Positions 1,823 to 21,368 of a DNA stretch of 64,000 nt are shown piece after piece. Origin of the DNA: Candidatus Binatia bacterium. GTDB lineage: Bacteria > Desulfobacterota > Binatia > UBA9968 > JAJDTQ01. Position 1 is the stretch's first letter; each line of letters opens with the position of its first letter. The stretch lies in assembly GCA_963666515.2 (NCBI GenBank), contig OY762897.2:3296001-3360000 (forward strand), read 5' to 3'. The position numbers and the translations under genes were made by a program. The notes under the pieces were generated by a model, which did no database searches, was not told the origin of the DNA, and worked only from the letters and a program-made list of their open reading frames with translations.

Positions 1823-4612
<2,790 letters not shown>

Positions 4613-5383: not shown

Positions 5384-7105
5384 TCAAACCCCTCGCTCCA
5401 ACTCCGCGATCTTCGACCGGATCCGCTGCACCTGCTCGTCCTCGGTGGCCGACTTCAGCGCGTCGCGATAGCTCCGCAACGCCTTGCCGGGCTTGCCGAC
5501 CTTGAGATAGGCGTCGCCGAGGTGCTCGATGATGACGGGGTCGTCCACCACCAGGTGCACGGCCTTCTCCAACTGCTCGATGGCGCGCCGGTAGTCGCCC
5601 TTCTGGTAGTAAACCCAGCCGAGGCTGTCGATGTAGAAACCATCGTTGGGCGCGATCTCCAGCGCGCGGATGATGAGCCGTTCCGCCCGGTCCAGCTCCA
5701 CGCCCATGTCGGCGTAGGTGTATCCCAGGTAGTTCAGCGCCGCAGCGTAGTCCGGGTTCAGCTCGATGGCCTTCTGCATGTACTCGATGGTCTTGTCCTT
5801 GTTCTTGCTCTCGTCGTAGAGCGCTCCCAACGCGAAGTGCACGCGGTCGCTTCCCGGATCCAGCTCGACCACCGTGTGCATGGCCTCGATGGCATTGGGG
5901 TAGTCCTTGGCCTGACGGTATATCTCGGCCAGAAAACGGAACAGCTCCTTGCGCCGCCGGTCGTCCTTTTCGATGGCGGCGCGGATGGCGGCCACCGCCT
6001 CGGAATACTTCTCCTGTTTCTCGTAGAGCGAAGCGAGCTGCACCCGGGAATCGACGAAATACTCGCTGTCTGCGGCGACGTGCCGGAACTGGCGCGCCGC
6101 CCCCCCGGAATCCTCCAGCCGGCTGTAGGTCAGGCCCAGGAAGAACCGTACACGGTCGTCGTCAGGCCGCTCCGCGAGGGCCAGATTGAACTCCGTGACC
6201 GCGGCCTCCAGGTTGCCGAGCTCGTAGTGGACCAGCGCCACCTTCATCCGGGCCACGCCGGGCGCGGCCTCCCGGGAGCGCAGGCGGTCGAACTCGGCGC
6301 GCGCGCCCGCCAGGTCCCGGTCGCCCGAGCGAAGGGCCTCGACGCGGCTGCCGGCCCAGCCGTTGCGCGGATCGGCCTTGAGGAGCTTCTCGTAGGTCTC
6401 CAGCGCGGCGCCGGGGCGGCCGCGGAACTCGCGGACCAGTCCCAGTTCCGTGAGCAACGGCACCGACGACGGGTGCAGCTTGAGGGCCGTCTCGTAGCTC
6501 TTTTCCGCGTCCGCCAGCTCCCCGGACTCCGCCAGGGTCCGTCCAAGGTAGTAGTGGCCCAACGGCGATACGGGATTGCGTTTCGCGTACCGCTCCAGGT
6601 GCTCCCGCGCGGGTTCGTATTGCGCCCGGTCGAAATGGATGGCGCCAAGGTAGAGGAGTGTCCGGGCGTCGTCCGGGTCGGTTTCCAGCAGCTCCCGGTA
6701 CACCCGGATTGCCTCCGATACCTTTCCCGAGGCGCTGTAGAGCCCGGCCAGCAACCGGCGGCTTTCCCGGTCCTCGCCATCGAGCCGCACCGCGGCCTCC
6801 GCCTCGCCCAGGGCGTTGTCGATCTCGCCGAGGCCGAGATGGGACCTGGCCAGACGCGCGCGCAGGAAAGCGCTGGAGGGATCGTGACGGGCCGCCGCCT
6901 CGTAGTGCTCGTGGGCCGCGTGGGAATCGCCGGCAAGCAGGTCCATCCGAGCCCTCAGGTATCGGTACATGGCCTGGGCTTCCGGCGGGACCGTTACCGC
7001 CTCCGCGTTTGCAAGGGGACCGGGCGATGGCTCGGAAACCGGCTCGGCGGGACCGCAACCCGCGAGCAGCAGTGCGAAAACGATTCCCCAGCCAAGGTTG
7101 CGCAT
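5384..7105 (-). CDS. TPR-repeat lipoprotein
   Basis: Lipobox LAGC, many TPR repeats, C-terminal ALNYLGYTYA...YIDSLGWVYY...EHLGD motif. Confidence 0.85.
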   Translation of the reverse strand: MRNLGWGIVFALLLAGCGPAEPVSEPSPGPLANAEAVTVPPEAQAMYRYLRARMDLLAGDSHAAHEHYEAAARHDPSSAFLRARLARSHLGLGEIDNALGEAEAAVRLDGEDRESRRLLAGLYSASGKVSEAIRVYRELLETDPDDARTLLYLGAIHFDRAQYEPAREHLERYAKRNPVSPLGHYYLGRTLAESGELADAEKSYETALKLHPSSVPLLTELGLVREFRGRPGAALETYEKLLKADPRNGWAGSRVEALRSGDRDLAGARAEFDRLRSREAAPGVARMKVALVHYELGNLEAAVTEFNLALAERPDDDRVRFFLGLTYSRLEDSGGAARQFRHVAADSEYFVDSRVQLASLYEKQEKYSEAVAAIRAAIEKDDRRRKELFRFLAEIYRQAKDYPNAIEAMHTVVELDPGSDRVHFALGALYDESKNKDKTIEYMQKAIELNPDYAAALNYLGYTYADMGVELDRAERLIIRALEIAPNDGFYIDSLGWVYYQKGDYRRAIEQLEKAVHLVVDDPVIIEHLGDAYLKVGKPGKALRSYRDALKSATEDEQVQRIRSKIAELERGV

Positions 7106-7268
7106 GATATTTTCCGGAACGGAAAATGCACAAGATAGCTATCACAGGCGCCGGGACCGGTCAACGACGGACGCGATCCGGCATCGTCACCGGCAGAGGG
7201 AGGTCGCAGGGCAACTGCTTGAATTCCCTGGATGATATTCTATCTTCCTATCAAGGCTACGGAATTGA

Positions 7269-9299
<2,031 letters not shown>

Positions 9300-9308
9300 C
9301 GGGCGGGG

Positions 9309-9384
9309 GGACGGCGGCGGGACAAGCCCCCGGATGACGAAGGGCGGACCCAACGTCATCCGGGGGCTTGTCCCGCCGCCGTCC
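9309..9384. repeat. Perfect 31-bp inverted repeat with 14-nt loop (REP-like palindrome) between ligA and rsmI
   Basis: ggacggcggcgggacaagcccccggatgacg at 9309-9339 and its exact reverse complement at 9354-9384. Confidence 0.85.
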
Positions 9385-9429
9385 GTAGAGGATGAAAACC
9401 GGCCTGCATGACCGGGCATTGGCTGGAAC

Positions 9430-10251
9430 ATGCTGTACGTGGTGGCAACGCCAATCGGGAACCTGGAGGACGTCACGTTGCGGGCGTTGCGCGTGCTGCG
9501 GGAGGTGGACCTCATCGCTGCGGAGGACACCCGCCACACCCGGAAGCTGCTGGAACGGTACGACATCGACACGCCGCTGACGAGCTACCACGACCGCAAC
9601 GAACGGACCAAGGCCGCCGCGTTGGTGCGGCGGCTGGAGGTGGGCGAGAGCATCGCGCTGGTGTCGGACGCGGGCACGCCGACGATTTCGGACCCGGGCT
9701 ACCACCTGATCCGGGCAGCGGTGGAGAGGGGTATGCCGGTGACCCCGGTGCCGGGGGTGTCCGCGGCCACCGCGGCGTTGAGCGTGTGCGGGTTGGCCAC
9801 GGACCGGTTCGTGTTCCAGGGGTTCCTGCCGGCGCGGCAGAGCCGGCGGAGGGAAGCGTTGCGGCAACTCCAGGGCGAGGAGCGCACCCTGGTGTTCTAC
9901 GAGGCGCCGCACCGGATCCGGCAGGCGCTGGCGGATATGCACGAGGTGCTGGGGGACCGGGCCGCGCTGGTGGGGCGCGAACTGACCAAGGTGCATGAAG
10001 AGTTGCTGCGCGGGACGCTGTCTCAACTGGCTGCGGGACCGGAAGAGGCGGCGGCGCGCGGGGAGTTCGTCATCGTGGTGGCCGGCCGCGACGGGACGCC
10101 CGAGGTGGACGAGAAGACACTGCGGGCGGAGGTCGAAAGGCTGCTTGAAGCCGGACATACGGCCAACGAGACGGCCAAAGTCCTGGCGAAGACGTTCTCA
10201 CTGGCGAAACGCGATGTCTACAAGCTAGTGCTGAAGGTGGCCAAGAGGTGA
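9430..10251 (+). CDS. rsmI: 16S rRNA (cytidine1402-2'-O)-methyltransferase
   Basis: LYVVATPIGNLED, AEDTR, VSDAGTP, FYEAPHR, RELTKVHEE motifs. Confidence 0.96.
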   Translation: MLYVVATPIGNLEDVTLRALRVLREVDLIAAEDTRHTRKLLERYDIDTPLTSYHDRNERTKAAALVRRLEVGESIALVSDAGTPTISDPGYHLIRAAVERGMPVTPVPGVSAATAALSVCGLATDRFVFQGFLPARQSRRREALRQLQGEERTLVFYEAPHRIRQALADMHEVLGDRAALVGRELTKVHEELLRGTLSQLAAGPEEAAARGEFVIVVAGRDGTPEVDEKTLRAEVERLLEAGHTANETAKVLAKTFSLAKRDVYKLVLKVAKR

Positions 10252-10301
10252 TGACGGTGGAAGAGTGACGGCACCATCAGTTGAGCCGACTCATCGTCCC
10301 C

Positions 10302-10526
10302 TCACTCGCGGTTGCCTCGTATCTCGCCTCGTAGTTCTGAAAGCTCCCGCGCCAAAGCGTGAAACTCCTTCCGCAACCCCTCCAAACCAAGCTCCAACCG
10401 GTTGATCCGGTCGTCCAACCGGTCGATTCGGCCGTCCAGCCGGTTCTCCAGCCGAACCATCACGCGCCAGTTGAATGCCACAACGGCTATCCCAACGCTG
10501 ACTATCGCGATGATCTCACCCGTCAC
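10302..10526 (-). CDS. Small membrane-anchored coiled-coil protein
   Basis: N-terminal hydrophobic helix then heptads RLENRLDGRIDRLDDRINRLE; GAGGA RBS before GTG. Confidence 0.6.
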   Translation of the reverse strand: MTGEIIAIVSVGIAVVAFNWRVMVRLENRLDGRIDRLDDRINRLELGLEGLRKEFHALARELSELRGEIRGNRE

Positions 10527-10672
10527 GTCTCGTCCTCGCAGGCCCCGTGCGATTGTGTCTCATACATAATAGTTTCGGCCTTTGCCGTCAATTCTTTAAT
10601 CATTGTTCTTCTTCAAAATAAAATATGTCCTTTCTCGGACCGGCTCCCGGCGTCCGGGCCCTTGGCGCGGGT

Positions 10673-11488
10673 CTACCTGCCCCAGTCCCGGGAATACCGG
10701 AAGTCGCGGTCGATGGTGCGGTGGGAGACCTTGGCGATGACCGGGAGGCGGCGCTTGAACTGGGAGGTCTGGATGCGGCGGGCGATGTCGTCGACGAAGT
10801 CGGGGGTGAAACCCGCGTCGATGAGTTCCGGGCGGCCGTAGCGCTGGTCCACCATCAGGTAGAGCAGCTCGTCCACCTCGCGGTAGCTGAAGCCCAGTTC
10901 GGCCTCGTCGGTCTGGCCTTCCCACAAGTCGGCCGAAGGTTTCTTGTCGACGATCGCGCCGGGAACGCCGACGGCCCCGCTCAGAGCCCAGACCTGAGTC
11001 TTGTAGAGGTCCCCCAGGGGGTTGAGGGCGGAGGCCATGTCGCCGTGGAGGGTGCCGTAGCCCAGCAGCAGCTCGGTCTTGTTGCTGGTGCCCGCCACCA
11101 GGGCGTTCCAGCGCGCGGAGTGGTCGTAGAGGATGGTCATCCGTTCGCGAGCCATCTTGTTCCCCCGGCGCTTGGGGTCGGCGTCCGGGAACCTTTCGAA
11201 ATAGGCGTCGATCTGGGGGGTGATCTCGACGGTGGCGGAGCGGATGCCGCTCTTCTCCACCACCAACCGGGCGTGCTCCAGGCTCTCGGCGCTCGAGGTC
11301 CGGTAGGGCATCATGATGCCCAGCACCTGGTCCGGACCGAGGGCTTCCGCCGCCAGCATGGCGCTGAGGCTCGAATCCACTCCGCCGGACAGGCCAACCA
11401 CCACGCGTTCGAGGCCGACCTTGCGCACCTCGTTGCGGATGAACGCCACCAGGATGCGGCGCATCAGCGAGACGTTGGTGGGGATCAT
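10673..11488 (-). CDS. nadE: NAD+ synthetase (synthetase subunit)
   Basis: [44 protein letters not shown]; start placed at MIPTNV. Confidence 0.93.
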
Positions 11489-11493
11489 CGGAA

Positions 11494-12339
11494 CTACTCG
11501 TTGCGGATCCGCTCCAGCTCGCGGATGGTGAGGTCCACGTCCTCGTCGCGCATGAGCGGGGCGCGCGTGCGCTTGCGCCGCACGACCTCGTGCGCCACGT
11601 CGCCGAAAACGAACTCCTCCTCGTAGTAGCCGGCCTTGCACACCGTGCGCCCAAAGGGGTCGAGGATGCCGGAACCGCCCCAGAAGCCCACGCCATCCTC
11701 GAAGCCGACCCGGTTGGCGTGGACCACGAAGACGCCGTAGGTCTCGGCATAGCTCCGGGTGATCAGCTCCCAGTAACGCGCGTTGTCGTCCTGGTCCGCG
11801 CCGTCGGTGACGCCCCGTAGCGGGCTGGAAGACGGACAGAGGATGGAAAGCGCCCCGTCGAGCGCCGCCAGGTAGACCGTGGAGGGGTGCCACATGTCCT
11901 CGCAGACCAGCAGCGCGAGGCGGCCGTGCCGGGTGTCGAACGCCCGCAGCCGGTCGCCCCGGGCGAAGTAGCGCTGCTCGTCGAACATGCCGTAGGTGGG
12001 CAGGTACGCCTTCCGGTGGACATGACGGACCTCGCCGTCCTCCAGGTACACCGCGGCGTTGAAGAACCGGTGGTCCCGGCTCTCCAGCACCAGTCCCGCC
12101 ACCAGCGACACCTCCCGGCTCAGTGCTTTGAGCCGCTCCATCTCCGGGCTCGACGGCCGCACCGCCACGTCCGGCACCATGTCGCGCAGGAAGTAACCCG
12201 TGAGGCTCAGCTCCGGGAAGACCACGAGGTCCGCGTCCCGGCCGGCCGCCTCCCGCACGCCGGCCTCGTAGAGGGCCATGTTCGCGGCGACGTCGCCCAG
12301 TTTCGGGTTGATCTGCGCCATGCCGACTCGGAACGACAT
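11494..12339 (-). CDS. Carbon-nitrogen hydrolase, likely glutaminase subunit of two-subunit NAD synthetase
   Basis: Nitrilase triad FPE / [18 protein letters not shown] / VCED; immediately upstream of nadE. Confidence 0.85.
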
Positions 12340-12450
12340 GAAGGGGTGGCTACCACATTTCCGCGAGGGGAGAAAGCGGCGACCGACCGGCGCGGACCCG
12401 GTCTCAGGGACTCCTGGAATTCGGCAGGGCTATTGGCTACATCAAGGCTC

Positions 12451-13521
12451 ATGGACGGGTTCAAGGACGTGGTGGCCGGGAAGGTGGCAGAGGCATTCGG
12501 CGCGGACGCGCGGGTGACGGGACTGGACGCGCTGGCCGGGGACGCGTCGTCCCGGCGCTATTTCCGGGCCCGCATCGATGCGCCGGAAGCGCCGGTTTCG
12601 GCCATCGTGATGAGCTGGAGCGACTCGGGCCTGCCGGTCTCGTCGGAGGAGCTGGCGGTGTTCAAGAAGCCGCCGGAGGAGTTGCCGTTCCTGAGCGTGC
12701 ACCGGTTCCTCGAGAGCGTCGGGGTGCGGGTGCCGGCGGTGTACGGGCAATGGGCGGAGCAGGGGCTGTTGCTGCTGGAGGACCTGGGAGACGTGAGCCT
12801 TTGGGACCGGGTGCGGGCGGCGCCGGAAGCGGATGTGATCGGGTGGTACTGCAAGGCCATCGACGAGCTGCTGGTGCTGCAGGTGGCCGGCACCAGGACC
12901 CGGGACGACCGCTGCGTGGCTTTCAGCCAGGCATTCGACCGGCGGCTTTACCTATGGGAATTCGCCCACTTCGTCGAATACGGTCTGGAGGCGGGAGACA
13001 ACGGCAGCCTGCCGAGGACGGAAAGGCGGCTCCTGGACCAGGCCTTTGAAGGCATCGCCGGGCACCTTTCCAACCGGCCGCGTGTGCTCAATCACCGGGA
13101 CTACCATAGCTGGAACCTGATGGTGCACGGCGACGCGGTGGCGGTCATCGACTTTCAGGACGCGCTGCTGGCGCCGGCGCAATACGATCTGGCGTCGCTG
13201 CTGAACGACCGGGAGACCGACCAGGTGGTCACGCCCGCGGTGGAAATGCGGCTGGTGGACTACTATATCCTGCGCCTGGAGGAATGGGGAGAGCCCCGGC
13301 CGACCCGGGACGAGTTCTGGGAGACCTACCTGCTTTCGGCCCTCCAGCGGGACTTCAAGGTGGTCGGCCGGTTCCGGTACCTCGACGTGGTCAAGGGCAA
13401 ATCCGGCTACAAGCGGTACATCGCCCCGACATTGAAACGGATCGGGAGGAACCTCCGGCGGGTGCCAGGGCTGGAACGCCTGATCCCGGTCCTGGCGGCG
13501 CACTTCGCGGATATCTCGTGA
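12451..13521 (+). CDS. amgK: Anomeric MurNAc/GlcNAc kinase (APH-family phosphotransferase)
   Basis: LAGDASSRRYFR, LLEDLGD, HRDYHSWNLM, IDFQDA, YDLASLL; GTGA overlap with murU. Confidence 0.8.
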   Translation: MDGFKDVVAGKVAEAFGADARVTGLDALAGDASSRRYFRARIDAPEAPVSAIVMSWSDSGLPVSSEELAVFKKPPEELPFLSVHRFLESVGVRVPAVYGQWAEQGLLLLEDLGDVSLWDRVRAAPEADVIGWYCKAIDELLVLQVAGTRTRDDRCVAFSQAFDRRLYLWEFAHFVEYGLEAGDNGSLPRTERRLLDQAFEGIAGHLSNRPRVLNHRDYHSWNLMVHGDAVAVIDFQDALLAPAQYDLASLLNDRETDQVVTPAVEMRLVDYYILRLEEWGEPRPTRDEFWETYLLSALQRDFKVVGRFRYLDVVKGKSGYKRYIAPTLKRIGRNLRRVPGLERLIPVLAAHFADIS

Positions 13522-14255
13522 AGGCGATGCTCTTCGCCGCGGGTCTGGGAACCCGGCTGCGGCCCCTCACCGACACCTTGCCCAAGTGCCTCGTCCCGGT
13601 CAACGGCCGACCCATGATCGACTACCCGCTGATGCTGCTGCGCCACTACGGGATCCGCGAGATCGTGGTCAACGTCCACCATCACGCCGAAAAGGTGGAG
13701 GAACACCTGGGCGACGGCTCGCGTTTCGGCGTGGACATCGTCTATTCCCGGGAACCCGTGCTGCTGGATACCGGCGGCGGCCTGCTGGGGGCGAAGCAGT
13801 TTCTGGACCAGGACACCTTCGTGATCGTGAACAGCGACGTGCTGATCGATCTGCGGCTGGACGAGACCCTGCGGTTTCACCGCGAGCACGGGGCGGCGGC
13901 CACCCTGGTGCTGCGCAAGGACCCGCTGGCGGAGGCCTACGGGGCCATCTGGACCGATGCGGAGGGAAGGATACGGAAGCTGCTGCACCATGATGCGCCC
14001 GGAGGCGGCGCCGGCGCTCTGGAGCAGTACATGTTCACCGGAGTTCAAGTGGTGGAGCCCCGGATATTCCGGTACATGGAAGGCCCCGAACCCTTCAGCA
14101 TCACCCGCACCACCTACCCGCGAATGCTCGCCAGTTCCGAGCGCCTTTGCGGCTTTCCGTTCGACGGAGAGTGGCAAGACATGGGGACCCCGGAGCGGCT
14201 GGCGGCGACGGAAATGAAATTGCGAGACGGTGGCCTCAGGCCCCACTATCTCTAA
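13518..14255 (+). CDS. murU: MurNAc-alpha-1-phosphate uridylyltransferase (nucleotidyltransferase)
   Basis: KAMLFAAGLGTRLRPLTDTLPKCL, LDTGGG, WQDMGTPE; coupled to amgK. Confidence 0.8.
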   Translation: MKAMLFAAGLGTRLRPLTDTLPKCLVPVNGRPMIDYPLMLLRHYGIREIVVNVHHHAEKVEEHLGDGSRFGVDIVYSREPVLLDTGGGLLGAKQFLDQDTFVIVNSDVLIDLRLDETLRFHREHGAAATLVLRKDPLAEAYGAIWTDAEGRIRKLLHHDAPGGGAGALEQYMFTGVQVVEPRIFRYMEGPEPFSITRTTYPRMLASSERLCGFPFDGEWQDMGTPERLAATEMKLRDGGLRPHYL

Positions 14256-14938
14256 TCGTCCTTCCTATCCCGCCGGGAATCCAGATACTCGCTGAGGCGT
14301 TGGTCCTCCTCGGCGTCGTAGAGTTCGCGGTCGACGCGGTGCAGCAGGAGTTCACCCGACTGAATGATCCGGCGTTTCTCCACGACGCCCTTACGGGCCA
14401 ATGAAATGCTTCGCCGGAGGGCGCGGCGCACGACCCCTCTGCCGTCCCAGAACTCGTCCGGGATTTCCTGGTAGCCCTCTTTCGTCGCCTTGACCAGCAA
14501 CGTCAGGCCTCCCTTGAAGCTCTCCAGGCCGGCCTCGTCGTCGCCCTGCCGCATCTGCGTCAAACCCAGGACGATCCAGCCTATCTCGTCCTCGCGATTC
14601 AGGGCCAGTGCGCGTTTCAACACTTCGAAAGACGAGCCGTACCTGCCCGCATAGTAGTAGGCACGCCCTAGCTGCGTGAGGCTGTCCTTGTACTTGGGGT
14701 TCCTGCGGACCACGTACTCAAGGTGCACGATGGCCTTCTTGACGTTCCCGCCCCGCTGTGTCTTGCCCAACTCCAGCAACGCGTCGTTGTAGTTGCCGCC
14801 GACGCCGATGCCTGGAGGCCTCCAACAGCCCGAAAGGGACGTCACCAGAATACTCGAAAACACAACCGCACCGAGCAGTCCCCAAGTCATGTGCCCGAAT
14901 CGCACCATTTGCTCCCCCATGAACCCTTGCTTCACCAA
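14252..14938 (-). CDS. TPR lipoprotein (start uncertain)
   Basis: Hydrophobic signal with LSGC lipobox followed by TPR helices (LTQLGRAYYYAGRY...ALALN). Confidence 0.65.
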   Translation of the reverse strand: MVKQGFMGEQMVRFGHMTWGLLGAVVFSSILVTSLSGCWRPPGIGVGGNYNDALLELGKTQRGGNVKKAIVHLEYVVRRNPKYKDSLTQLGRAYYYAGRYGSSFEVLKRALALNREDEIGWIVLGLTQMRQGDDEAGLESFKGGLTLLVKATKEGYQEIPDEFWDGRGVVRRALRRSISLARKGVVEKRRIIQSGELLLHRVDRELYDAEEDQRLSEYLDSRRDRKDD

Positions 14939-15030
14939 CCGTAACCGACCAAGTATCGACCGTGCCGCCGTTGCGAGTATCTATTCCACTTATCGCTGTT
15001 CGTCAAGCGAATCTGGTCTCTCTTTCGTTC

Positions 15031-15072
15031 AAACAAAAAACAGGGCCGCCCCGTGGCGGAGCGGCCCTGTTT
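15031..15072 (-). terminator. Rho-independent terminator of left porin copy
   Basis: Minus strand AAACAGGGCCGC-TCCGCCACGGG-GCGGCCCTGTTTTTT: GC stem plus U-tract just after the stop. Confidence 0.85.
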
Positions 15073-15095
15073 GCTATTCGGTTCGGGATGAACCG

Positions 15096-16478
15096 CTAGA
15101 ACTTGTATTCGATGACGAAAGTGAAGACGTTGAAAGAGTCCTTGCCGTCTTCGGTTATCACGTCCTTGAAGTTCTGGCCGGGGCAGGCGCCCTCACAACC
15201 GAAGGTATCCCACACACCGTGGATCTGCATCCAACCGCCGGGAACGTTGTAGACAACCGCCACTCCGGTGTTGGTCACGTCGGAGCTGTCGCCCGCATAT
15301 TCGACCTCGGCCGCGCTGTAGAGCGGAGCTATGTAGACACCGCCTTCACCCTTGCTTCCACCCATAATGCCGCTCTTGGGCCCCCACAGCCATACCCGTG
15401 CCGCAAGCCGAATGTCCGAAGCTTCGACATCGACGCCGCCGCCCGGATCCCTCTCATAGGTAGCGTAATTGGCGGAGAGCGACAGCCAGTTCAACGGGGA
15501 CCACCCCAAGCCGTGGGACATATACGTGATGTCATAGTTAGTGCCCGCCGTCCCCTCGATATCGATCAAGGTCGCCCTTTTCGCCAAGTTGGGGGTACGG
15601 GCTCTCACACGGACCGCATCATCAAAGGTCTTGCCATCGGAATGAGCCAATTGATCGGTATAGGCTGTGTAACCCACGCTGTACGAAAGGCTCGATACGG
15701 CGAGGCCGCCCATTTCCTTGGCATTTGCGAGAGGCTTCAGACCCAGCGCGAAACTTACGCTATTGCCGCTCTCTCCGGCCTCTGCTGCTTCGTTCTTACC
15801 GTCCTGGCCCCACGCCAGTTGCAGGTGACTGATCTTGGAAATACCCATACCGGGCAACTTCTTCCAGGACAGCACGAAACTTCCGTCTTGCTGTCCGCCG
15901 ATTCCCAAGCCATCCAGAAGCGGGCTGTCTTCCGTACGGAAAGCGCCTGCCTGCGTATTGCCACTAAAGGACGGACTGTAGCCCCAGCCGAAGCTCGGGA
16001 GCCACGGGCTCATCTTGTCGAAATTGATGTATCCGTCGCCACCGAAGCTGGTGCCAGTGCCACCCTCGTTGAGAAGCCAAGTGACCGCGTAGAACCCCTG
16101 CTGGGACGTGACGTTGATCGTCGGCCGAAAACGCCGCACGCGAAGCTCCAGGTTCTGGTAGCCCTTCTCTTTATTCTCGTTGCTCAGCCATACGCTGTGG
16201 TAGACCTGCAGCCTCTGCGTGAAACGGATGCTCCAGTTGTTGTCCGCCGCGGCGATCGTCAGACCACCACCCGGCTTATACTTGAACGACGGCCCCTTCA
16301 TCTCGGCGGCCAGTGCACTCTCCTGGTTCTGCTTCAGTTGCGCCAGTTCCCGTTCCAGGGCCTGGATCCGCGTGTCCACGTCAGACGCCTGGACCGGCGA
16401 TGCCGCCAGCGCGAGGGCTCCCGTCAAGACCACGGCGCTTGCGAGACCGAGCGCCCTTTTCAGAAACACCATATTCAT
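15096..16478 (-). CDS. Outer-membrane beta-barrel/porin-like protein, allele A (460 aa)
   Basis: AAGGAGGAGG RBS, signal peptide ending VQA, N-terminal coiled coil, ELRVRRFR motif reminiscent of OprO/OprP-type porins, C-terminal beta-signal FVIEYKF. Confidence 0.8.
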   Translation of the reverse strand: MNMVFLKRALGLASAVVLTGALALAASPVQASDVDTRIQALERELAQLKQNQESALAAEMKGPSFKYKPGGGLTIAAADNNWSIRFTQRLQVYHSVWLSNENKEKGYQNLELRVRRFRPTINVTSQQGFYAVTWLLNEGGTGTSFGGDGYINFDKMSPWLPSFGWGYSPSFSGNTQAGAFRTEDSPLLDGLGIGGQQDGSFVLSWKKLPGMGISKISHLQLAWGQDGKNEAAEAGESGNSVSFALGLKPLANAKEMGGLAVSSLSYSVGYTAYTDQLAHSDGKTFDDAVRVRARTPNLAKRATLIDIEGTAGTNYDITYMSHGLGWSPLNWLSLSANYATYERDPGGGVDVEASDIRLAARVWLWGPKSGIMGGSKGEGGVYIAPLYSAAEVEYAGDSSDVTNTGVAVVYNVPGGWMQIHGVWDTFGCEGACPGQNFKDVITEDGKDSFNVFTFVIEYKF

Positions 16479-16505
16479 GACCTCCTCCTTGGTAATCAGA
16501 GTTAT
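16042..16505 (-). repeat. Left arm of perfect 464-bp inverted repeat (RBS plus 5' end of porin A)
   Basis: Line-by-line comparison shows exact reverse complement of 16735-17198. Confidence 0.92.
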
Positions 16506-16558
16506 TGCAAACAGCGAATCTGCTTTACGCTTTCTACGTTTTTGGCGGTTTCTGTGCA

Positions 16559-16656
16559 ATTGTACATAAGTATGCTTTTCTATCAACGAAAGGGGGCATA
16601 CGTTAACTAAGTAGTACTTGAGTATTAAATCTTGGGGCGAATCTGAGAGTTGTCAA
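16559..16656 (-). promoter_or_regulatory. Candidate sigma70 promoters in the inter-porin spacer, both facing porin A
   Basis: Minus strand TTGATA(16586-16581)-16 nt-TACAAT(16564-16559) and TTGACA(16656-16651)-17 nt-AAGATT(16633-16628). Confidence 0.55.
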
Positions 16657-16734
16657 CAACGACATGAGCCCACAACCCCCACATCTTCCCTGACCCTTCT
16701 CCGCCTGGGCACCACACGAGACCCGAAGAACGCC

Positions 16735-17198
16735 ATAACTCTGATTACCAAGGAGGAGGTCATGAATATGGTGTTTCTGAAAAGGGCGCTCGGTCTCGCA
16801 AGCGCCGTGGTCTTGACGGGAGCCCTCGCGCTGGCGGCATCGCCGGTCCAGGCGTCTGACGTGGACACGCGGATCCAGGCCCTGGAACGGGAACTGGCGC
16901 AACTGAAGCAGAACCAGGAGAGTGCACTGGCCGCCGAGATGAAGGGGCCGTCGTTCAAGTATAAGCCGGGTGGTGGTCTGACGATCGCCGCGGCGGACAA
17001 CAACTGGAGCATCCGTTTCACGCAGAGGCTGCAGGTCTACCACAGCGTATGGCTGAGCAACGAGAATAAAGAGAAGGGCTACCAGAACCTGGAGCTTCGC
17101 GTGCGGCGTTTTCGGCCGACGATCAACGTCACGTCCCAGCAGGGGTTCTACGCGGTCACTTGGCTTCTCAACGAGGGTGGCACTGGCACCAGCTTCGG
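16735..17198 (+). repeat. Right arm of perfect 464-bp inverted repeat (RBS plus 5' end of porin B)
   Basis: Begins ATAACTCTGATTACCAAGGAGGAGGTCATG; identical to reverse complement of 16042-16505; first mismatch at 17199. Confidence 0.92.
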
Positions 17199-18099
17199 CG
17201 GCGACGGATACATCAACTTCGACAAGTTGAACCCGTGGCTCCCGAGCTTCGGTTGGGGCGCCAGTCCGAGCTTGGACGTTGATACGCAGGCAGGCGCTTT
17301 CCGTACTGAAGACAGCCCGCTTACGAGTGCCTTGGGCATGGGCGGAGGGCAAGACGGGAGTTTCGTGCTATCCTGGAAGAAGTTGCCGGGTATGGGTATT
17401 TCCAAGATCACCCACCTGCAAGTGGCGGTGGGCCAGGACAATCAGGAAGAATGGAAAGCGGGAGACGACGGCAATAACGTAGGTTTCGCGCTGGGTCTGG
17501 AGCCTCTCGCAAATGCCAAGGAAATGGGCGGCTTCGCCGTATCGAGCCTTTCGTACAGCTTCGGTTACCAGGCCCATACCGACACGTTGTCCTCTGTGGA
17601 AGTCGTAGCCCCCAACTTGGCGCACAAGCCGATGTTGATCAATATCGACGAGGTGAACGCCGACACCACGTATATGTCCCACGGCTTGGGGTGGTCCCCG
17701 TTGAACTGGCTGTCGCTCTCCGCCAATTACGCTACCTATGAGAGGGATCCGGGCGGCGGCGTCGATGTCGAAGCTTCGGACATTCGGCTTGCGGCACAGG
17801 TATGGCTGTGGGGGCCCACGAGCGGCATTATGGGTGGAAGCAAGTCTGAAGGCGGTATCTCCATAGCTCCGCTCTACAACGTGGCCGATATCGACTTTGA
17901 CGGCGGAAACTCCGAGGTAACCAACACCGGAGTGGCGGTCGTCTACAACGTTCCCGGCGGTTGGATGCAGATCCACGGTGTGTGGGATACCTTCGGTTGT
18001 GAGGGCGCCTGCCCCGGCCAGAAATTCAAGGACGTCATAACCGAAGACGGCAAGGACTCTTTCAACGTCTTCACTTTCGTCATCGAATACAAGTTCTAG
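16762..18099 (+). CDS. Outer-membrane beta-barrel/porin-like protein, allele B (445 aa)
   Basis: Same RBS; first 155 aa identical to allele A; divergent internal segments; same C-terminal FVIEYKF. Confidence 0.8.
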   Translation: MNMVFLKRALGLASAVVLTGALALAASPVQASDVDTRIQALERELAQLKQNQESALAAEMKGPSFKYKPGGGLTIAAADNNWSIRFTQRLQVYHSVWLSNENKEKGYQNLELRVRRFRPTINVTSQQGFYAVTWLLNEGGTGTSFGGDGYINFDKLNPWLPSFGWGASPSLDVDTQAGAFRTEDSPLTSALGMGGGQDGSFVLSWKKLPGMGISKITHLQVAVGQDNQEEWKAGDDGNNVGFALGLEPLANAKEMGGFAVSSLSYSFGYQAHTDTLSSVEVVAPNLAHKPMLINIDEVNADTTYMSHGLGWSPLNWLSLSANYATYERDPGGGVDVEASDIRLAAQVWLWGPTSGIMGGSKSEGGISIAPLYNVADIDFDGGNSEVTNTGVAVVYNVPGGWMQIHGVWDTFGCEGACPGQKFKDVITEDGKDSFNVFTFVIEYKF

Positions 18100-18117
18100 C
18101 AGTTTATCCCGCACCGC

Positions 18118-18160
18118 AAAAAAAGGGGGCCGTTCCACCTTCGGAACGGCCCCTTTTTTG
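18118..18160 (+). terminator. Rho-independent (possibly bidirectional) terminator of right porin copy
   Basis: AAAAAAAGGGGGCCGTTCC-ACCTTC-GGAACGGCCCCTTTTTTG. Confidence 0.88.
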
Positions 18161-18315
18161 GTGCCGGTCCGACCGTTTGTTCAACAATATTTGTTTTGTC
18201 AAACTCCCTCCCGAACACGACTCCTCGCGTTGAGAGCAATCCCCCCGCACCGTTTTCCCCAAGGCGCACCCTCCCGGAATGCAGGGAATGTGTCGGTATC
18301 CAATGAGCTTCCACA

Positions 18316-19272
18316 ATGACTACCGAATCCGACATTCACAACCTCGTCCTGTCATCGGCGGTTGCGCCCAACACGCGACTGGCCTACCGCAAGGGCTGGA
18401 ACTGCTTCACCGCGTATTGCGCGAAGGAACGGATCGCCGACCCGCTATCCGCCTCTCCGGAGACGGTCGCCCGCTTTCTTCTGGACTGCGCCACGCGGCC
18501 CCGTTCGGAACGAGGCACACCGTTGTCCATGGGAACGGTCTTCCTCTACAGCAGTGCCATTGCCAAACGATTCACCGACGCCGGAAGGACCGCACCCACC
18601 CATCACCCCACCGTCCGGGCGACGCTCAAGGGTCTAAGCCGTCTGAGGGGCACGGCCCCGCGGCGGGTCAAGGCATTGCGCGAGGGGCACGTGAGGGCGA
18701 TGATCGCCCAGTGTCCGAACTCGGTGATCGGGACGCGCGACGCCGCGGTCCTCGCGCTCGGTTTCGCCGCCGCCCTGCGCCGGTCCGAGATCTGTGCGCT
18801 GCACGTCGACGACGTGACCATCCTGTCGCCGCCTCAGGAACACCCCCGGCGGATGTTGCTCAGCATCCGCCGATCCAAGACCGATCCAAACGGCAAGGGT
18901 CAACCGATCGCCGTCCCGGAAGGCAAGACGGTCAAGCCCATCGACTGGGTGCAGGCGTGGCTGGCGGTATCGGGCATCACGCACGGACCGCTGTTCCGGA
19001 CCATGAAACGGGGCGGGGCGGTGCAGGAGAGACCGCTGCATCATTCCGATGTCCCGCGCCTGGTCAAGCGCTACGCAGCATTGATCGGGCTGGACCCGAA
19101 AGAGTTGTCCGGGCATTCCCTGCGGGCGGGCTTCGTCACCAGCGCCGCGGCGCACCATGCCCGGCTCGACAAGATCATGGCGGTCACCCGCCATACCAAC
19201 CCAGCCACGGTCATGGAATACATCCGTGACGCCGATGCGTTCTGCGATCACGCGGGTAGCGCATTTCTGTAA
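18316..19272 (+). CDS. Tyrosine site-specific recombinase (Cre-like phage integrase family)
   Basis: N-terminal core-binding region (APNTRLAYRKGWNCF) and full catalytic set: ALRRSE (R), RSKTD (K), GHSLRAG (HxxR), TRH (H), MEYIRD (Y). Confidence 0.92.
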   Translation: MTTESDIHNLVLSSAVAPNTRLAYRKGWNCFTAYCAKERIADPLSASPETVARFLLDCATRPRSERGTPLSMGTVFLYSSAIAKRFTDAGRTAPTHHPTVRATLKGLSRLRGTAPRRVKALREGHVRAMIAQCPNSVIGTRDAAVLALGFAAALRRSEICALHVDDVTILSPPQEHPRRMLLSIRRSKTDPNGKGQPIAVPEGKTVKPIDWVQAWLAVSGITHGPLFRTMKRGGAVQERPLHHSDVPRLVKRYAALIGLDPKELSGHSLRAGFVTSAAAHHARLDKIMAVTRHTNPATVMEYIRDADAFCDHAGSAFL

Positions 19273-19277
19273 TGTGC

Positions 19278-19328
19278 GTCCTTCGACTTCGCCTGTCCTG
19301 AGCCTGTCGAAGGGCTCAGGACGAGCGG
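19278..19328. repeat. Palindromic interspersed repeat (cttcgac...gctcaggacgagcgg family)
   Basis: Nested palindrome gtcctgagcc...ggctcaggac; related gctcaggacgaacgg copy near 24913-24927. Confidence 0.6.
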
Positions 19329-19371
19329 GTTGGTTGACATCGGGGCTGCCGGGAAGAAATAGTGTCACTTC

Positions 19372-20091
19372 ATGGCCGAGCCCATCAGGATAGTGCTGGC
19401 GGATGATCACGCCCTGTTTCGGGAGGGCTTGAAGGGCCTCCTGGCGCGGGAACGCGACCTGCTGGTGACCGCGGAGGCGGCGCGGGCGGAGGAGGTGGAA
19501 CCCGCGGTGGTGAAGGGCAACGGCGACGTGCTGCTGCTGGACCTCCGGATGCCGGGAGGGGAAGCGGTCCAGACGCTCCTGCAACTCAGGGAAAGCCGTC
19601 CGGAGACCCGGACGATGATCCTCACCGCGTACGAGGACGCGGACAGCATCGTCAACACGGCCAAGGCCGGCGCCCGCGGCTACCTCTTGAAGGACGTGGC
19701 CGCGGAGACGCTGTTCCAGGCGGTGCGCAACGTCCACGGCGGCGGCGTGTGGATCGACCGGAACCTGCCCCGGGCCGGCGATTTCGCCGCCATTGCCGCC
19801 CAGTCCAACGCCGATCCGCCGGGGGACGAGGCGGACGGGATACAGAGCCTGACCCGCCGCGAGATGGAGGTCCTGAAGCTCCTGGCCGAGGGGCTCAGCA
19901 ACGACGAGATCGCCGCCAGCACGTTCATCAGCGAGCGCACGGTCAAGGCCCACGTCACCAGCATCTTTTCCAAGCTCAAGGTCAACAACCGCGTCAAGGC
20001 CGCTCTGGCGCTCATCCGGAGAGGCCCGGCGCCACCTTCTCCCGTTGCCGCCCCCGCGCCTCGACGATCCCGCGCAACAGCGAAGCCATGA
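19372..20091 (+). CDS. NarL/LuxR-family response regulator (orphan in this window)
   Basis: LADDHALFREG, LLDLRMP receiver, LTRREMEVL...SERTVKAHV HTH. Confidence 0.92.
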   Translation: MAEPIRIVLADDHALFREGLKGLLARERDLLVTAEAARAEEVEPAVVKGNGDVLLLDLRMPGGEAVQTLLQLRESRPETRTMILTAYEDADSIVNTAKAGARGYLLKDVAAETLFQAVRNVHGGGVWIDRNLPRAGDFAAIAAQSNADPPGDEADGIQSLTRREMEVLKLLAEGLSNDEIAASTFISERTVKAHVTSIFSKLKVNNRVKAALALIRRGPAPPSPVAAPAPRRSRATAKP

Positions 20092-21368
20092 TGCCGACCC
20101 ACCGCCGCACCGTCCTCGCCTGGTGCCTCTACGACTTCGCCAATTCGGCCTTCACCACCCTGGTGGTCACGTTCATCTACTCGGCGTTCTTCACCAAGGT
20201 CATCGCCCCGGACGAGATGACGGGCACGTGGCTGTGGTCCCGGAGCGTCAGCATCACCGCCATCGCTGTGGCCCTGCTGTCGCCGCTTCTCGGCGCCCTG
20301 GCCGACCGGGGCGGCTACCGCAAGCGCTTCCTGGGGTTCTTCACCCTGGTCGCGGTAGCCGGGTCGGCCGTCCTCTACACGGCCGCGCCAGGGGAAGTGG
20401 TCAAGGCGCTGCTCTGGTTCACGGCAGCCAACATCGCCTTCGAGATGTGCGGCGTGTTCTACAACGCTTTTCTGCCGGACGTGGCGCCGCCGGACCGGAT
20501 CGGGCGCGTCTCGGGTTACGGCTGGGCCCTGGGCTACGTCGGCGGCCTGTCCGCCCTGGGGCTGGCCCTGGTGGGGTTCGTCGACGCCGAGGTCCCGTGG
20601 TTCGGCTTCGAGAAGGAGGGCTACCAGCACATCCGCGCCACCAACCTGCTGGTGGCAGGCTGGTTCGCCGTCTTCAGCCTGCCACTGTTCCTGTGGGTGC
20701 CGGAAAGCGCGGCCCGACCCGGCGTCTCCGGCTCGCTTCTGTCCGACCCCTTCCGGCGCTTGGCCCGCACCATCCGTGAGATCCGGCGCTATCCCGACAT
20801 CTTCCGCCTGTTGCTCGCCCGCCTCTTCTACGCCGACGGCCTCAACACGGTCTTCGCCTTCGGCGGGATCTACGCGGCCGGCACCTTCGGCTTCACCTTC
20901 GAGGAACTGCTGGTCTTCGGCCTGGTGCTCAACGTGGCCGCGGGCATCGGCGCCTTCGCCCTGGGGTTCGTGGACGACTGGCTGGGCGGCAAGCGCACCG
21001 TACAGATCAGCCTGCTGGGCTTCATCGCCGCCACCCTGACCGCGGTGCTCACCGGCCGGCGCGCTCTCTTCTGGACCGCCGGCATCCTCAGCGGCATCTG
21101 CGCCGGGCCCAACCAGGCGGCGAGCCGCTCGCTCATGGGCCGTTTCGTGCCCGCGCACAAGCAGAACGAGTTCTACGGCCTGTTCGCCTTCTCCGGCAGG
21201 GCCACGGCCTTTCTGGGCCCCTTTCTGCTGGGCGAGTTGACGCGCCTGTTCGGCTCGCAACGCGCCGGCATGACGGTGGTGCTGGTCTTCTTCGTCATCG
21301 GCCTCGCGCTGTTGCAGCGGGTGGACGAGGAGCGCGGAAAGCAGCCCGAGAACGGGACAGGAGATTAG
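20088..21368 (+). CDS. MFS transporter, UMF1/Atg22-like family
   Basis: AWCLYDFANSAF, YNAFLPD, GRVSGYGWALGYVGG, QAASRSL; ATGA overlap with response regulator. Confidence 0.88.
   Translation: MMPTHRRTVLAWCLYDFANSAFTTLVVTFIYSAFFTKVIAPDEMTGTWLWSRSVSITAIAVALLSPLLGALADRGGYRKRFLGFFTLVAVAGSAVLYTAAPGEVVKALLWFTAANIAFEMCGVFYNAFLPDVAPPDRIGRVSGYGWALGYVGGLSALGLALVGFVDAEVPWFGFEKEGYQHIRATNLLVAGWFAVFSLPLFLWVPESAARPGVSGSLLSDPFRRLARTIREIRRYPDIFRLLLARLFYADGLNTVFAFGGIYAAGTFGFTFEELLVFGLVLNVAAGIGAFALGFVDDWLGGKRTVQISLLGFIAATLTAVLTGRRALFWTAGILSGICAGPNQAASRSLMGRFVPAHKQNEFYGLFAFSGRATAFLGPFLLGELTRLFGSQRAGMTVVLVFFVIGLALLQRVDEERGKQPENGTGD

What the first reader, a model, noticed from the sequence alone, without database searches (positions are those of the whole stretch)
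15031..19272. Putative invertible-promoter porin switch: head-to-head porin alleles, one-way promoter spacer and adjacent Cre-like recombinase
Seen in sequence: two paralogous beta-barrel genes (15096-16478 minus, 16762-18099 plus) form a large inverted repeat, each with its own terminator. The inner arms are identical over 464 bp, including silent sites, from 27 nt upstream of the ATG. Identity stops abruptly at a unique 229-bp spacer (16506-16734). An intact tyrosine recombinase starts about 160 bp after the right terminator, with no phage, transposon or ICE genes nearby. Established knowledge: promoter inversion switches surface proteins in Campylobacter fetus sap, Dichelobacter nodosus omp1 and Lactobacillus slpA/slpB, and FimB/FimE tyrosine recombinases invert fimS. 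Inference: recombination between the arms flips the spacer so that only one porin allele is expressed, giving phase variation of a major surface protein (phage receptor or host recognition). I do not recognise this porin-pair plus Cre-like recombinase combination as a described system.
Basis: partly seen in the sequence, partly recalled or inferred. Interest (0 to 1): 0.9.

Follow-up and report, generated by a model that had tools for sequence, protein, structure and literature searches.

The report
Flip-flop promoter between two porin genes
Two alternative versions of an outer-membrane pore gene face each other across one short promoter piece that related species carry in either direction, next to a DNA-flipping enzyme, so the cell probably shows only one version at a time.

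Summary
Two full-length porin genes (15096-16478 minus, 16762-18099 plus; 83% identical proteins) face each other. Their 5' ends are exactly identical over 464 bp, around a unique 229-bp, low-GC spacer. An intact tyrosine recombinase gene lies 216 bp downstream.

Comparative genomics supports the switch reading. The head-to-head pair occurs in 9 of the 28 genomes of the genus, always with the recombinase beside it. None of the 7 single-porin loci examined has the recombinase. The spacer carries the native porin upstream module next to one arm only. That module faces the recombinase-distal porin in 6 genomes and the proximal one in 3. Two sister species differ only by an inverted spacer. Close paralogues of the recombinase sit beside inverted specificity domains of a Type IIG restriction enzyme, and between another pair of head-to-head genes.

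I call it a new variant of a known kind, the invertible-promoter allele switch.

The parts
15038..15072 (-). Intrinsic terminator of the left porin gene
   Evidence: 16-pair GC-rich hairpin followed by a T run; read in the sequence.
15096..16478 (-). Left (TPR-side, recombinase-distal) porin allele, 460 aa. It has a signal peptide, an N-terminal helix and a beta-barrel. It is the allele that the promoter module faces in this assembly.
   Evidence: ORF and translation. It holds the position of the only porin in single-copy relatives. The fold of its paralogue matches OprO/OprP.
16042..16505 (-). Left exact arm of the inverted repeat (464 bp): 27 nt of 5' UTR with the ribosome-binding site, plus the first 437 nt of coding sequence
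   Evidence: Base-by-base comparison. The wider 94% repeat is 15789-16508.
16506..16734 (.). Unique 229-bp spacer, the proposed invertible segment
   Evidence: Identity of the arms stops abruptly here. GC is 0.47-0.51. The homologous spacers occur in both orientations among 9 genomes.
16506..16600 (-). Conserved porin upstream module (5' UTR blocks and promoter region), reading towards the left porin
   Evidence: Blocks are conserved in 13 aligned upstream regions, from pair genomes of both orientations and from single-porin genomes.
16559..16586 (-). Sigma-70-like promoter match, TTGATA-16-TACAAT (10 of 12)
   Evidence: The -10 region is conserved; the -35 is only weakly conserved among relatives.
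16607..16633 (.). Conserved, partly palindromic block about 45-70 nt upstream of the -10 hexamer (about 75 nt from the inferred transcription start); candidate regulator-binding site
   Evidence: Conserved column block in the alignment. The function is inferred.
16710..16734 (.). Conserved motif at the promoter-distal end of the spacer, abutting the other arm
   Evidence: Seen by eye at the module-distal end of 8 of the 9 spacers printed, so it travels with the spacer. Its function is unknown.
16735..17198 (+). Right exact arm of the inverted repeat (464 bp)
   Evidence: The wider repeat is 16732-17451.
16762..18099 (+). Right (recombinase-side) porin allele, 445 aa. It differs from the left allele mainly by indels and substitutions in discrete segments of the middle and C-terminal parts.
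   Evidence: AlphaFold2 model and Foldseek match to OprO/OprP.
15079..15533 (.). 3' inverted-repeat arm (left); partner is 17662-18116, 455 nt at 94%
17662..18116 (.). 3' inverted-repeat arm (right)
18126..18153 (.). Hairpin terminator after the right porin, with T runs on both sides
   Evidence: One search lists it on the minus strand. The plus-strand T run is read.
18316..19272 (+). Tyrosine recombinase, 318 aa; the proposed invertase
   Evidence: PF00589 at E 1.8e-14. R155, K188, H267, R270, H293 and Y302 are invariant in 14 aligned homologues. It is adjacent to the porin pair in 9 of 9 pair genomes.

Best explanation
This is a DNA-inversion switch that selects one of two porin alleles.

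The 229-bp spacer holds the only recognisable porin upstream module: a candidate operator, the promoter and a conserved 5' UTR. In this assembly the module points at the left gene. That allele is inferred ON and the right one, which has no promoter of its own, OFF.

Recombination between the inverted, identical 5' arms flips the spacer and turns the right allele ON. The arms consist of the ribosome-binding site, the signal peptide, the N-terminal helix and the first strands of the barrel. I propose that the adjacent tyrosine recombinase catalyses or initiates this exchange. The site would lie in the innermost roughly 100 nt of the arms, because that is the only part kept highly identical in all nine genomes.

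Repeated exchange with heteroduplex repair would keep the arms homogenised, while the variable segments beyond them stay different. I infer these segments to be surface loops. The outcome would be a population that is mixed for the exposed face of a major OprO/OprP-like porin. I infer this as a hedge against phages, predators or host recognition.

Shown here: the anatomy, the linkage, both orientations among species, concerted evolution of the arms, and inversion contexts for paralogous recombinases. Inferred: the switching rate, the need for the recombinase, exclusive expression and the selective agent.
For: Anatomy.

Origin of the spacer. Single-porin relatives have TPR(-) porin(-) RR(+), with the same conserved module directly upstream of the porin. 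Pair genomes have the second porin plus the recombinase inserted between the module and RR.

Linkage. All 9 head-to-head pairs (G000, G002, G005, G006, G007, G009, G011, G020, G042) have the recombinase next to the pair. None of the 7 single-porin loci has it (G003, G004, G012, G013, G015, G021, G022), nor does the tandem locus of G024.

Orientation. The module is on the TPR side in 6 genomes and on the recombinase side in 3. At least 2 changes are needed on a tree built from the flanks. Between G002 and G011 the plus-strand alignments stop exactly at the inner ends of the arms, and the spacer aligns only inverted. The long-loop allele stays on the TPR side in both.

Concerted evolution. The arms start 24-28 nt upstream of the ATG in 9 of 9 genomes. 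In G009 the first 200 nt are 97-99% identical, although the two alleles are otherwise as different as those of separate clades (57% against 78% identity to the query).

Recombinase. It is catalytically complete.

Paralogues. The 83% and 67% identical paralogues abut inverted TaqI_C specificity domains of an Eco57I-type enzyme, with 112-bp and 131-bp inverted repeats. A 74% identical copy abuts a 5'-truncated silent porin cassette that converges on a full-length porin. A copy in another family of the class (61% identity, 58% by tblastn) lies inside the spacer of a different head-to-head gene pair with 593-bp arms.

No promoter match points at the distal porin in 0 of 9 spacers.
Against: Orientation follows phylogeny fairly well. 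All 6 pair genomes of one clade agree, and 2 changes explain everything. That fits rare events as well as frequent switching.

Arms of 464 bp of perfect identity are ample for RecA alone.

No conserved short crossover site was found, and nothing beyond chance is shared between the porin arms and the restriction-enzyme repeats.

The sigma-70 match is conserved at the homologous position in only 2 of 9 spacers (3 of 9 have any match towards the proximal porin). The promoter is therefore defined mainly by conservation.

The spacer appears to keep a relic of the ancestral RR-side sequence. This is my own reading. A weak second promoter cannot be excluded.

More distant relatives of the recombinase (35-52% identity) lack nearby long inverted repeats in 39 of the 41 metagenome loci of at least 5 kb that I examined, out of 80 kept. 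Such relatives are common on viral contigs.

Two further copies of the recombinase (G023b, and the truncated G011c) showed no nearby inverted repeat.
Confidence: 0.62

Rival explanations
1. The spacer does invert, but by general (RecA) homologous recombination between the long identical arms, as reported for Campylobacter fetus sap. The neighbouring recombinase plays no part; it would be a leftover of the event that brought in the second porin, or serve another target.
For: There are 464 bp of perfect identity. No short conserved core site was found. Orientation changes are few on the tree. The wider recombinase family is integrase-like and common on viral contigs.
Against: The recombinase has stayed intact and adjacent in 9 of 9 pair genomes across two clades, while the porins diverged to 55-80% identity. 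Its paralogues abut inverted repeats of only 112-131 bp in a restriction-enzyme specificity shufflon, and lie within another inverted gene pair. In G009 the exact tract is only 31 nt and the arm about 300 nt at 93%, which is a poor RecA substrate, yet the architecture is kept.
Confidence: 0.2
2. The two genes are ordinary divergent paralogues, both expressed from their own promoters. The orientation differences among species are neutral historical rearrangements, and the identical arms reflect recent gene conversion only.
For: The promoter elements are not strongly canonical. The spacer seems to contain a relic of the ancestral divergent RR-side region pointing at the right porin (my reading). 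There are no expression data.
Against: The conserved module abuts only one arm in 9 of 9 genomes. Apart from a terminal motif of about 25 nt, the distal part of the spacer is not conserved. No promoter-like match points at the distal porin in 0 of 9 spacers. The strict co-occurrence with the recombinase would be left unexplained.
Confidence: 0.1
3. The second porin plus the recombinase form a small integrative cassette. The recombinase's job would be integration or excision, not inversion.
For: The second porin and the recombinase are present or absent together at the same chromosomal point. In G009 the recombinase-side allele resembles porins of the other clade, which suggests transfer. Relatives are annotated as integrases.
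Against: No direct repeats bracket the cassette in the repeat search of 14000-21000. There are no other mobile genes, and the site is the same in all 9 genomes. This reading does not explain the flipped spacers or the inversion contexts of the paralogues.
Confidence: 0.05
4. Assembly artefact: the identical arms or the spacer orientation were produced by the assembler.
For: Inverted repeats are hard to assemble. One fragmented relative (G019) has a contig that ends 478 bp beyond the recombinase gene, on the side where the porin pair lies in G000.
Against: The same structure appears in 9 independent assemblies, on contigs of 0.13-5.0 Mb. The arms differ in length and identity from genome to genome.
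Confidence: 0.03

Closest known systems
Dichelobacter nodosus Omp1 locus (Moses et al. 1995; seen here only as cited in a passage of PMC4196234, and in a reference list)
   Same: Linked, structurally variant genes for the major outer-membrane protein, with site-specific inversion proposed to give phase and antigenic variation.
   Different: It has four genes rather than two. Details of its sites and enzyme were not read here (I recall only the title and the cited summary). The present proteins are OprO/OprP-like by fold, the organisms are uncultured Binatia, and a dedicated tyrosine recombinase sits beside the pair.
Campylobacter fetus sapA promoter inversion (recalled; my search returned no primary paper)
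   Same: As I recall it, a single promoter on an invertible segment is flanked by oppositely oriented homologues that share long conserved 5' regions, so one allele is expressed at a time. This is the closest architectural analogue.
   Different: As I recall it, that system depends on RecA, has no dedicated recombinase, uses a multi-kilobase invertible segment, and switches S-layer proteins. Here the spacer is 229 bp, a tyrosine recombinase is strictly linked, and the cargo is a porin.
Ureaplasma parvum mba/UU376 alternate phase variation (abstracts of PMC3047005 and PMC3599477 in the listing)
   Same: Alternate expression of two major surface proteins is ascribed to DNA inversion at inverted repeats, with tyrosine recombinases as candidate mediators.
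   Different: The repeats there are short, the cargo is lipoproteins of a wall-less bacterium, and the recombinase is not adjacent. Here the arms are hundreds of bp of coding sequence.
Bacteroides invertible promoters and SusC/SusD shufflons with tyrosine invertases (PMC4747536 abstract; Nakayama-Imaohji 2009 as cited in PMC9881135)
   Same: Outer-membrane proteins are switched by recombinase-mediated inversion, and one recombinase family serves several loci.
   Different: The targets there are TonB-dependent SusC/RagA transporters with short inverted repeats.
Inverting specificity domains of restriction-modification enzymes ('epigenetic invertons', PMC7672463 abstract; Type II and Eco57I annotations enriched in PMC9881135)
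   Same: Paralogues of this recombinase (83% and 67% identical) sit beside exactly such inverted TaqI_C specificity domains. This ties the enzyme family to inversion.
   Different: In those systems the coding sequence is swapped. In the window a promoter is re-aimed.
FimB/FimE and fimS of Escherichia coli (recalled)
   Same: Tyrosine recombinases invert a short promoter-bearing element.
   Different: As I recall it, fimS is an ON/OFF switch for one operon with 9-bp repeats. Here the choice is between two alleles, with arms of hundreds of bp.

Membership tests
Tyrosine recombinase / phage integrase superfamily (PF00589) | Profile match above the curated cut-off | tested here: met
   E 1.8e-14, 54.3 bits against a cut-off of 27.1. 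PHROG integrase families at 2e-19.
Tyrosine recombinase / phage integrase superfamily (PF00589) | Catalytic set R, K, H-x-x-R, H/W and the tyrosine nucleophile (the motif itself is recalled) | tested here: met
   R155, K188, H267, R270, H293 and Y302 are invariant in the 14-sequence alignment A1. Their assignment to catalytic roles is by recalled motif order, not by a structural superposition.
Cre recombinase family specifically | Closer to Cre than to other tyrosine recombinases | tested here: not met
   Best solved relative is XerD at 8.5e-6, with Cre at 4e-5 to 1e-3; both are weak and cover the catalytic domain only. NCBIfam Xer models score far below their cut-offs.
Invertible-promoter switch (inverton) | A promoter-bearing segment bounded by inverted repeats | tested here: met
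Invertible-promoter switch (inverton) | Both orientations exist in nature | tested here: met
   Among species: 6 against 3. The sister pair G002/G011 differs only by an inverted spacer.
Invertible-promoter switch (inverton) | Both orientations within one clonal population (reversible, frequent) | not testable with these tools
The metagenome scan returned no close relatives (best 52% identity).
Invertible-promoter switch (inverton) | Inversion depends on a dedicated recombinase | not testable with these tools
   Only linkage is shown (9 of 9 pairs), together with the inversion contexts of paralogues.
OprO/OprP phosphate-selective porins (Pfam Porin_O_P; name recalled) | Sequence-profile membership | tested here: not met
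   No Pfam or NCBIfam family at E up to 0.01 for either allele. None of the 120 homologues listed (of 175 found) carries a Pfam domain.
OprO/OprP phosphate-selective porins (Pfam Porin_O_P; name recalled) | Fold: large trimeric-porin-type beta-barrel | tested here: met
   Foldseek top hits are 4rjx, 4rjw and 2o4v at E 3e-16 to 8e-16 and TM 0.62-0.68, on a model of pLDDT 73. Ion selectivity was not assessed.
RecA-dependent sap-type promoter inversion | No dedicated site-specific recombinase; dependence on RecA | not testable with these tools
   A linked recombinase is present. RecA dependence needs an experiment.

The most novel reading that the evidence does not exclude
Within the class Binatia, one lineage of phage-type tyrosine recombinases has been domesticated as a general-purpose invertase. 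It is deployed in at least four designs:
- a 229-bp flip-flop promoter between two complete porin alleles;
- an inverted, 5'-truncated silent porin cassette for swapping 3' ends;
- specificity-domain shuffling in a Type IIG restriction enzyme;
- a recombinase-carrying spacer between two other head-to-head genes, one of which matches the DUF1302 family.

In the porin design the enzyme would act on the 5' UTR and signal-peptide region. That would drive the concerted evolution of the arms. Read-through from the recombinase-side porin into the recombinase gene could make switching depend on orientation. This would be allele-exclusive expression of a classical general porin, a target class that does not appear in the systematic inversion survey I could search.
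Probability: 0.3. Interest if true: 0.72.

Novelty: new variant of a known kind. Interest (0 to 1): 0.62.

Why it matters
Programmed inversions are documented mostly in host-associated, cultured bacteria, and for pili, flagella, capsules, SusC-type transporters and restriction specificity subunits. This locus would extend the principle to a classical porin-type barrel in an uncultured lineage. The record titles of relatives read 'Candidatus Binatia'.

The design is very compact: 229 bp plus one 318-aa enzyme. The genus offers natural before-and-after comparisons, with single-porin, pair and silent-cassette genomes.

The hypothesis is directly testable with long reads that already exist for such assemblies. 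It points to strong diversifying pressure on the variable segments of this porin. It also offers a small two-state genetic switch, with a recombinase family that seems to accept very different repeat sequences.

Tried and rejected
Sigma-54 promoter. By eye I saw a GG-N10-GC match on the plus strand of the spacer. I rejected it because the GG is not conserved in G009 and G005 or in the single-porin genomes G013 and G003.

Shared crossover site. No word of 12 nt or more is shared between the restriction-enzyme repeats and the porin arms. One 11-mer is shared with only one of the two repeats, which I judge to be chance. Best approximate 12- and 14-mers were no better than shuffled controls: 91 of 100 and 100 of 100 shuffles were at least as good.

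Mapping the crossover point. I looked for shared polymorphisms between arms of species with opposite orientation. There were too few informative sites in the 5' region (0 to 29 sites per comparison, nearly all beyond nt 500), so the result is uninformative.

Within-species orientation polymorphism from metagenome contigs. Of the 41 loci of at least 5 kb that I examined (out of 80 kept), 2 had an inverted repeat of 40 nt or more near the gene, and neither was convincing.

Rfam. One sub-threshold Thr_leader match (26 bits against a gathering score of 55, E 0.079) lies on the left terminator; I take it as chance.

Literature. Searches found no paper that links Binatia/Binatota with a porin switch, and no primary C. 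fetus sap paper in the held library.

Script error. One search had an off-by-one index and its numbers are void. One search is the corrected run.

Fixed-coordinate windows. In some searches these windows are distorted by indels for G005, G006 and G042. I therefore use only the figures for the first 100 nt of those genomes.

Tree markers. The 526-aa ORF 19680-21260 (minus strand), used as one of four markers, overlaps the response-regulator gene on the opposite strand. It has no family match and may not be a real gene. It was used only as conserved sequence.

Full report
CHECK OF THE OBSERVATION

The repeat search finds an inverted repeat at 15789-16508 / 16732-17451 (720 nt, 94%). A second one covers the 3' ends, 15079-15533 / 17662-18116 (455 nt, 94%). 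A base-by-base walk outward from the two start codons gives exact identity for 27 nt upstream and 437 nt downstream. That is 464 bp, 16042-16505 against 16735-17198. On the spacer side identity collapses at once.

The spacer 16506-16734 is 229 bp. GC is 0.47-0.51 in the windows that overlap it, against 0.56-0.62 in the genes and 0.63-0.70 in the flanks.

The two proteins (460 and 445 aa) are 83% identical. Their differences are concentrated in discrete segments after residue 155. Both genes are followed by hairpin plus T-run terminators.

The ORF 18316-19272 is a tyrosine recombinase (PF00589, E 1.8e-14). It starts 216 nt after the stop codon of the right porin. The genome holds no other copy of either gene family.

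WHAT THE PROTEINS ARE

Neither Pfam nor NCBIfam recognises the barrel proteins. A word-indexed search found 175 homologues at E up to 1e-5. All 120 listed lack Pfam domains, and those with a source name are called hypothetical.

An AlphaFold2 model built on a 22-sequence alignment has pLDDT 73 and pTM 0.70. It shows a signal peptide, a long N-terminal helix and a large beta-barrel. Foldseek places it nearest to OprO and OprP of Pseudomonas (E about 1e-16, TM 0.62-0.68), followed by general trimeric porins. 'Porin' is therefore supported by fold, not by family membership.

The recombinase has all the expected catalytic residues, invariant across 14 homologues. Its nearest solved relatives are XerD (8.5e-6) and Cre (4e-5), so 'Cre-like' is not specific.

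THE LOCUS IN RELATIVES

Record titles of relatives read 'Candidatus Binatia' metagenome-assembled genomes. The genus holds 28 genomes in the collection. In 19 loci that I fetched, the flanks are conserved: kinase-like gene, nucleotidyltransferase and TPR gene on one side; LuxR-type response regulator (RR) on the other.

Seven loci have a single porin directly between the TPR gene and RR, with no recombinase: G003, G004, G012, G013, G015, G021 and G022. Nine have the head-to-head pair, and in all nine the recombinase follows the RR-side porin: G000, G002, G005, G006, G007, G009, G011, G020 and G042. G024 has a tandem porin-TPR duplication without the recombinase.

The second porin and the recombinase are thus present or absent together, at one chromosomal point in core synteny. 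A fragmented genome, G019, has the recombinase on a contig that ends 478 bp beyond the gene, on the side where the porin pair lies in G000.

ONE PROMOTER

Single-porin genomes carry a set of conserved blocks directly upstream of their porin. The same blocks lie next to only one arm in every pair genome. In the window they read towards the left porin and include the only sigma-70-like match of the spacer (TTGATA-16-TACAAT, 10 of 12).

Applying the same criteria to all nine spacers gave no match aimed at the module-distal porin (0 of 9). It gave 3 of 9 aimed at the proximal one, 2 of them at the homologous place. The promoter is therefore defined by conservation rather than by consensus.

A sigma-54-like match that I saw by eye is not conserved, and I drop it. 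The distal end of the spacer carries a conserved motif of about 25 nt of unknown role, seen by eye in 8 of the 9 spacers. I cannot exclude a weak second promoter.

BOTH ORIENTATIONS EXIST

I oriented every locus by its flanks. The module then faces the TPR-side porin in G000, G002, G007, G009, G020 and G042. It faces the recombinase-side porin in G005, G006 and G011.

In a direct comparison of the sister species G002 and G011, the collinear alignments end exactly at the inner ends of the arms. The spacer aligns only in reverse (G002 5907-7043 against G011 6997-8125). The allele with the long extra loop remains on the TPR side in both. Only the spacer has turned.

On a tree built from the flanking sequences, all six pair genomes of one clade share one orientation, and the other clade is split three to one. 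Two changes suffice. This shows that inversion happens. It does not show how often.

CONCERTED EVOLUTION OF THE ARMS

In all nine genomes the repeat starts 24-28 nt upstream of the ATG. The first 100 nt are 91-100% identical within a genome. Exact tracts range from 31 to 701 nt. For nt 1-180, identity between genomes averages 77%.

G009 is the most telling case. Its two alleles belong to different porin types (57% and 78% identity to the query), yet their first 200 nt are 97-99% identical. Homogenisation anchored at the inner boundary fits recombination that starts near the 5' end.

THE RECOMBINASE FAMILY AND INVERSION

Paralogues in the genus that lie elsewhere in the chromosome abut other inverted repeats. 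In G011 a 67% identical copy lies next to a 1295-aa Eco57I-type enzyme. An inverted spare TaqI_C specificity domain accompanies it, with a 131-bp repeat. In G012 an 83% identical copy lies next to two inverted TaqI_C ORFs with a perfect 112-bp repeat.

In G010 a 74% identical copy precedes a porin copy that lacks the first 95 codons or so and has stop codons upstream. That copy converges on the full-length porin 4.3 kb away. This is the layout of a silent cassette for exchanging 3' ends. G023 has the same layout, but other genes stand where the recombinase would be.

A sample of 401 genomes of the phylum gave 4 matches at E up to 1e-50, counting G000. One of them, G153, belongs to another family of the class. 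There a copy (61% identity, 58% by tblastn) lies inside a 2.9-kb spacer between two other head-to-head paralogues with 593-bp arms at 94%. One of these two genes matches DUF1302 at 4e-10.

Against this, two copies (G023b and the truncated G011c) showed no nearby repeat. More distant relatives (35-52% identity) mostly lack such repeats (2 of 41) and are frequent on viral contigs (167 relatives).

MECHANISM AND RIVALS

I think the locus is a two-state allele switch. The spacer with the only promoter is flipped by exchange between the arms, and the linked recombinase catalyses or initiates that exchange (confidence 0.62).

The main rival is inversion by RecA alone, with the recombinase as a bystander (0.20). 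It is favoured by the long perfect arms, by the lack of an identifiable core site and by the few changes on the tree. It is disfavoured by the strict linkage and by what the paralogues sit next to.

Static divergent expression (0.10), a mobile cassette (0.05) and an assembly artefact (0.03) fit the data less well.

One further inference is that transcription from the recombinase-side orientation may read into the recombinase gene and make switching asymmetric. Nothing tested here bears on it.

COMPARISON WITH KNOWN SYSTEMS AND NOVELTY

Switching of outer-membrane or surface proteins by inversion is established or proposed in several cases:
- Dichelobacter nodosus Omp1 (passage in PMC4196234);
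- Ureaplasma mba/UU376 (abstracts);
- Bacteroides promoters and SusC/SusD (abstract of PMC4747536; passages of PMC9881135);
- from memory, Campylobacter fetus sap and E. coli fim.

The logic here is therefore known. Four things are new:
- the very small spacer combined with very long coding arms and a dedicated tyrosine recombinase;
- the lineage;
- the use of one recombinase lineage in several designs.

My searches found no description of it. I rate it a new variant of a known kind, with interest 0.62.

LIMITS

There is therefore no evidence from reads, RNA or same-species contigs. Orientation in each assembly reflects what its assembler resolved. Promoter, operator and recombination site are inferred from conservation only.

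Noticed in passing
L064 (G011) 8772-14470 and L062 (G012) 6842-9425: Paralogues of the recombinase sit next to an Eco57I-type (Type IIG) restriction-modification gene. Inverted spare TaqI_C specificity domains accompany it, with 131-bp and 112-bp inverted repeats. It looks like a specificity-switching shufflon. In G012 transposase-like ORFs lie upstream and the large enzyme gene was not seen.
   Followed up: partly
L049 (G010) 6402-14470; L050 (G023) 6618-14440: A second design. A porin copy lacking roughly its first 95 codons, with stop codons upstream, converges on the full-length porin 4-5 kb away. In G010 the recombinase is adjacent. In G023 a DNA methylase-HNH gene and an AAA ATPase gene occupy that place, and the recombinase lies elsewhere in the chromosome.
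   Followed up: partly
L239 (G153) 6556-13753: In another family of the same class, a recombinase (61% identity, 58% by tblastn) lies inside a 2.9-kb spacer between two head-to-head paralogues with 593-bp 5' arms at 94%. One paralogue matches DUF1302 at 4e-10. The spacer also contains short GC-rich repeats.
   Followed up: partly
L061 (G042) 8810-9062: The recombinase-side porin of G042 carries an in-frame, alanine/lysine-rich insertion of about 85 residues right after the N-terminal helix.
   Followed up: no
L051 (G024) 6478-12734: G024 has a tandem duplication of the porin together with the TPR gene (two porin-TPR units in the same direction) and no recombinase. This is another route to a second porin allele.
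   Followed up: no
L045 (G002) 7210-9513; L043 (G020) 3833-6189: About 2.3 kb of extra sequence lies between the recombinase and its porin in G002, and between the TPR gene and the porin in G020. I did not annotate either stretch.
   Followed up: no
window 19372-21368: Long ORFs overlap on both strands downstream of the response-regulator gene (19680-21260 minus, 19749-21368 plus). Neither has a family match, so which one is real is unclear. A sigma-70-like match (TTGACA-18-AATAGT) at 19334-19363 precedes the regulator gene.
   Followed up: no
window 15555-15780 and 17455-17650; alignment A2: The variable middle parts of the alleles show patchy 'same-side' and 'opposite-side' sharing of polymorphisms between species. 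This suggests mosaic exchange of variable segments between copies or lineages.
   Followed up: partly
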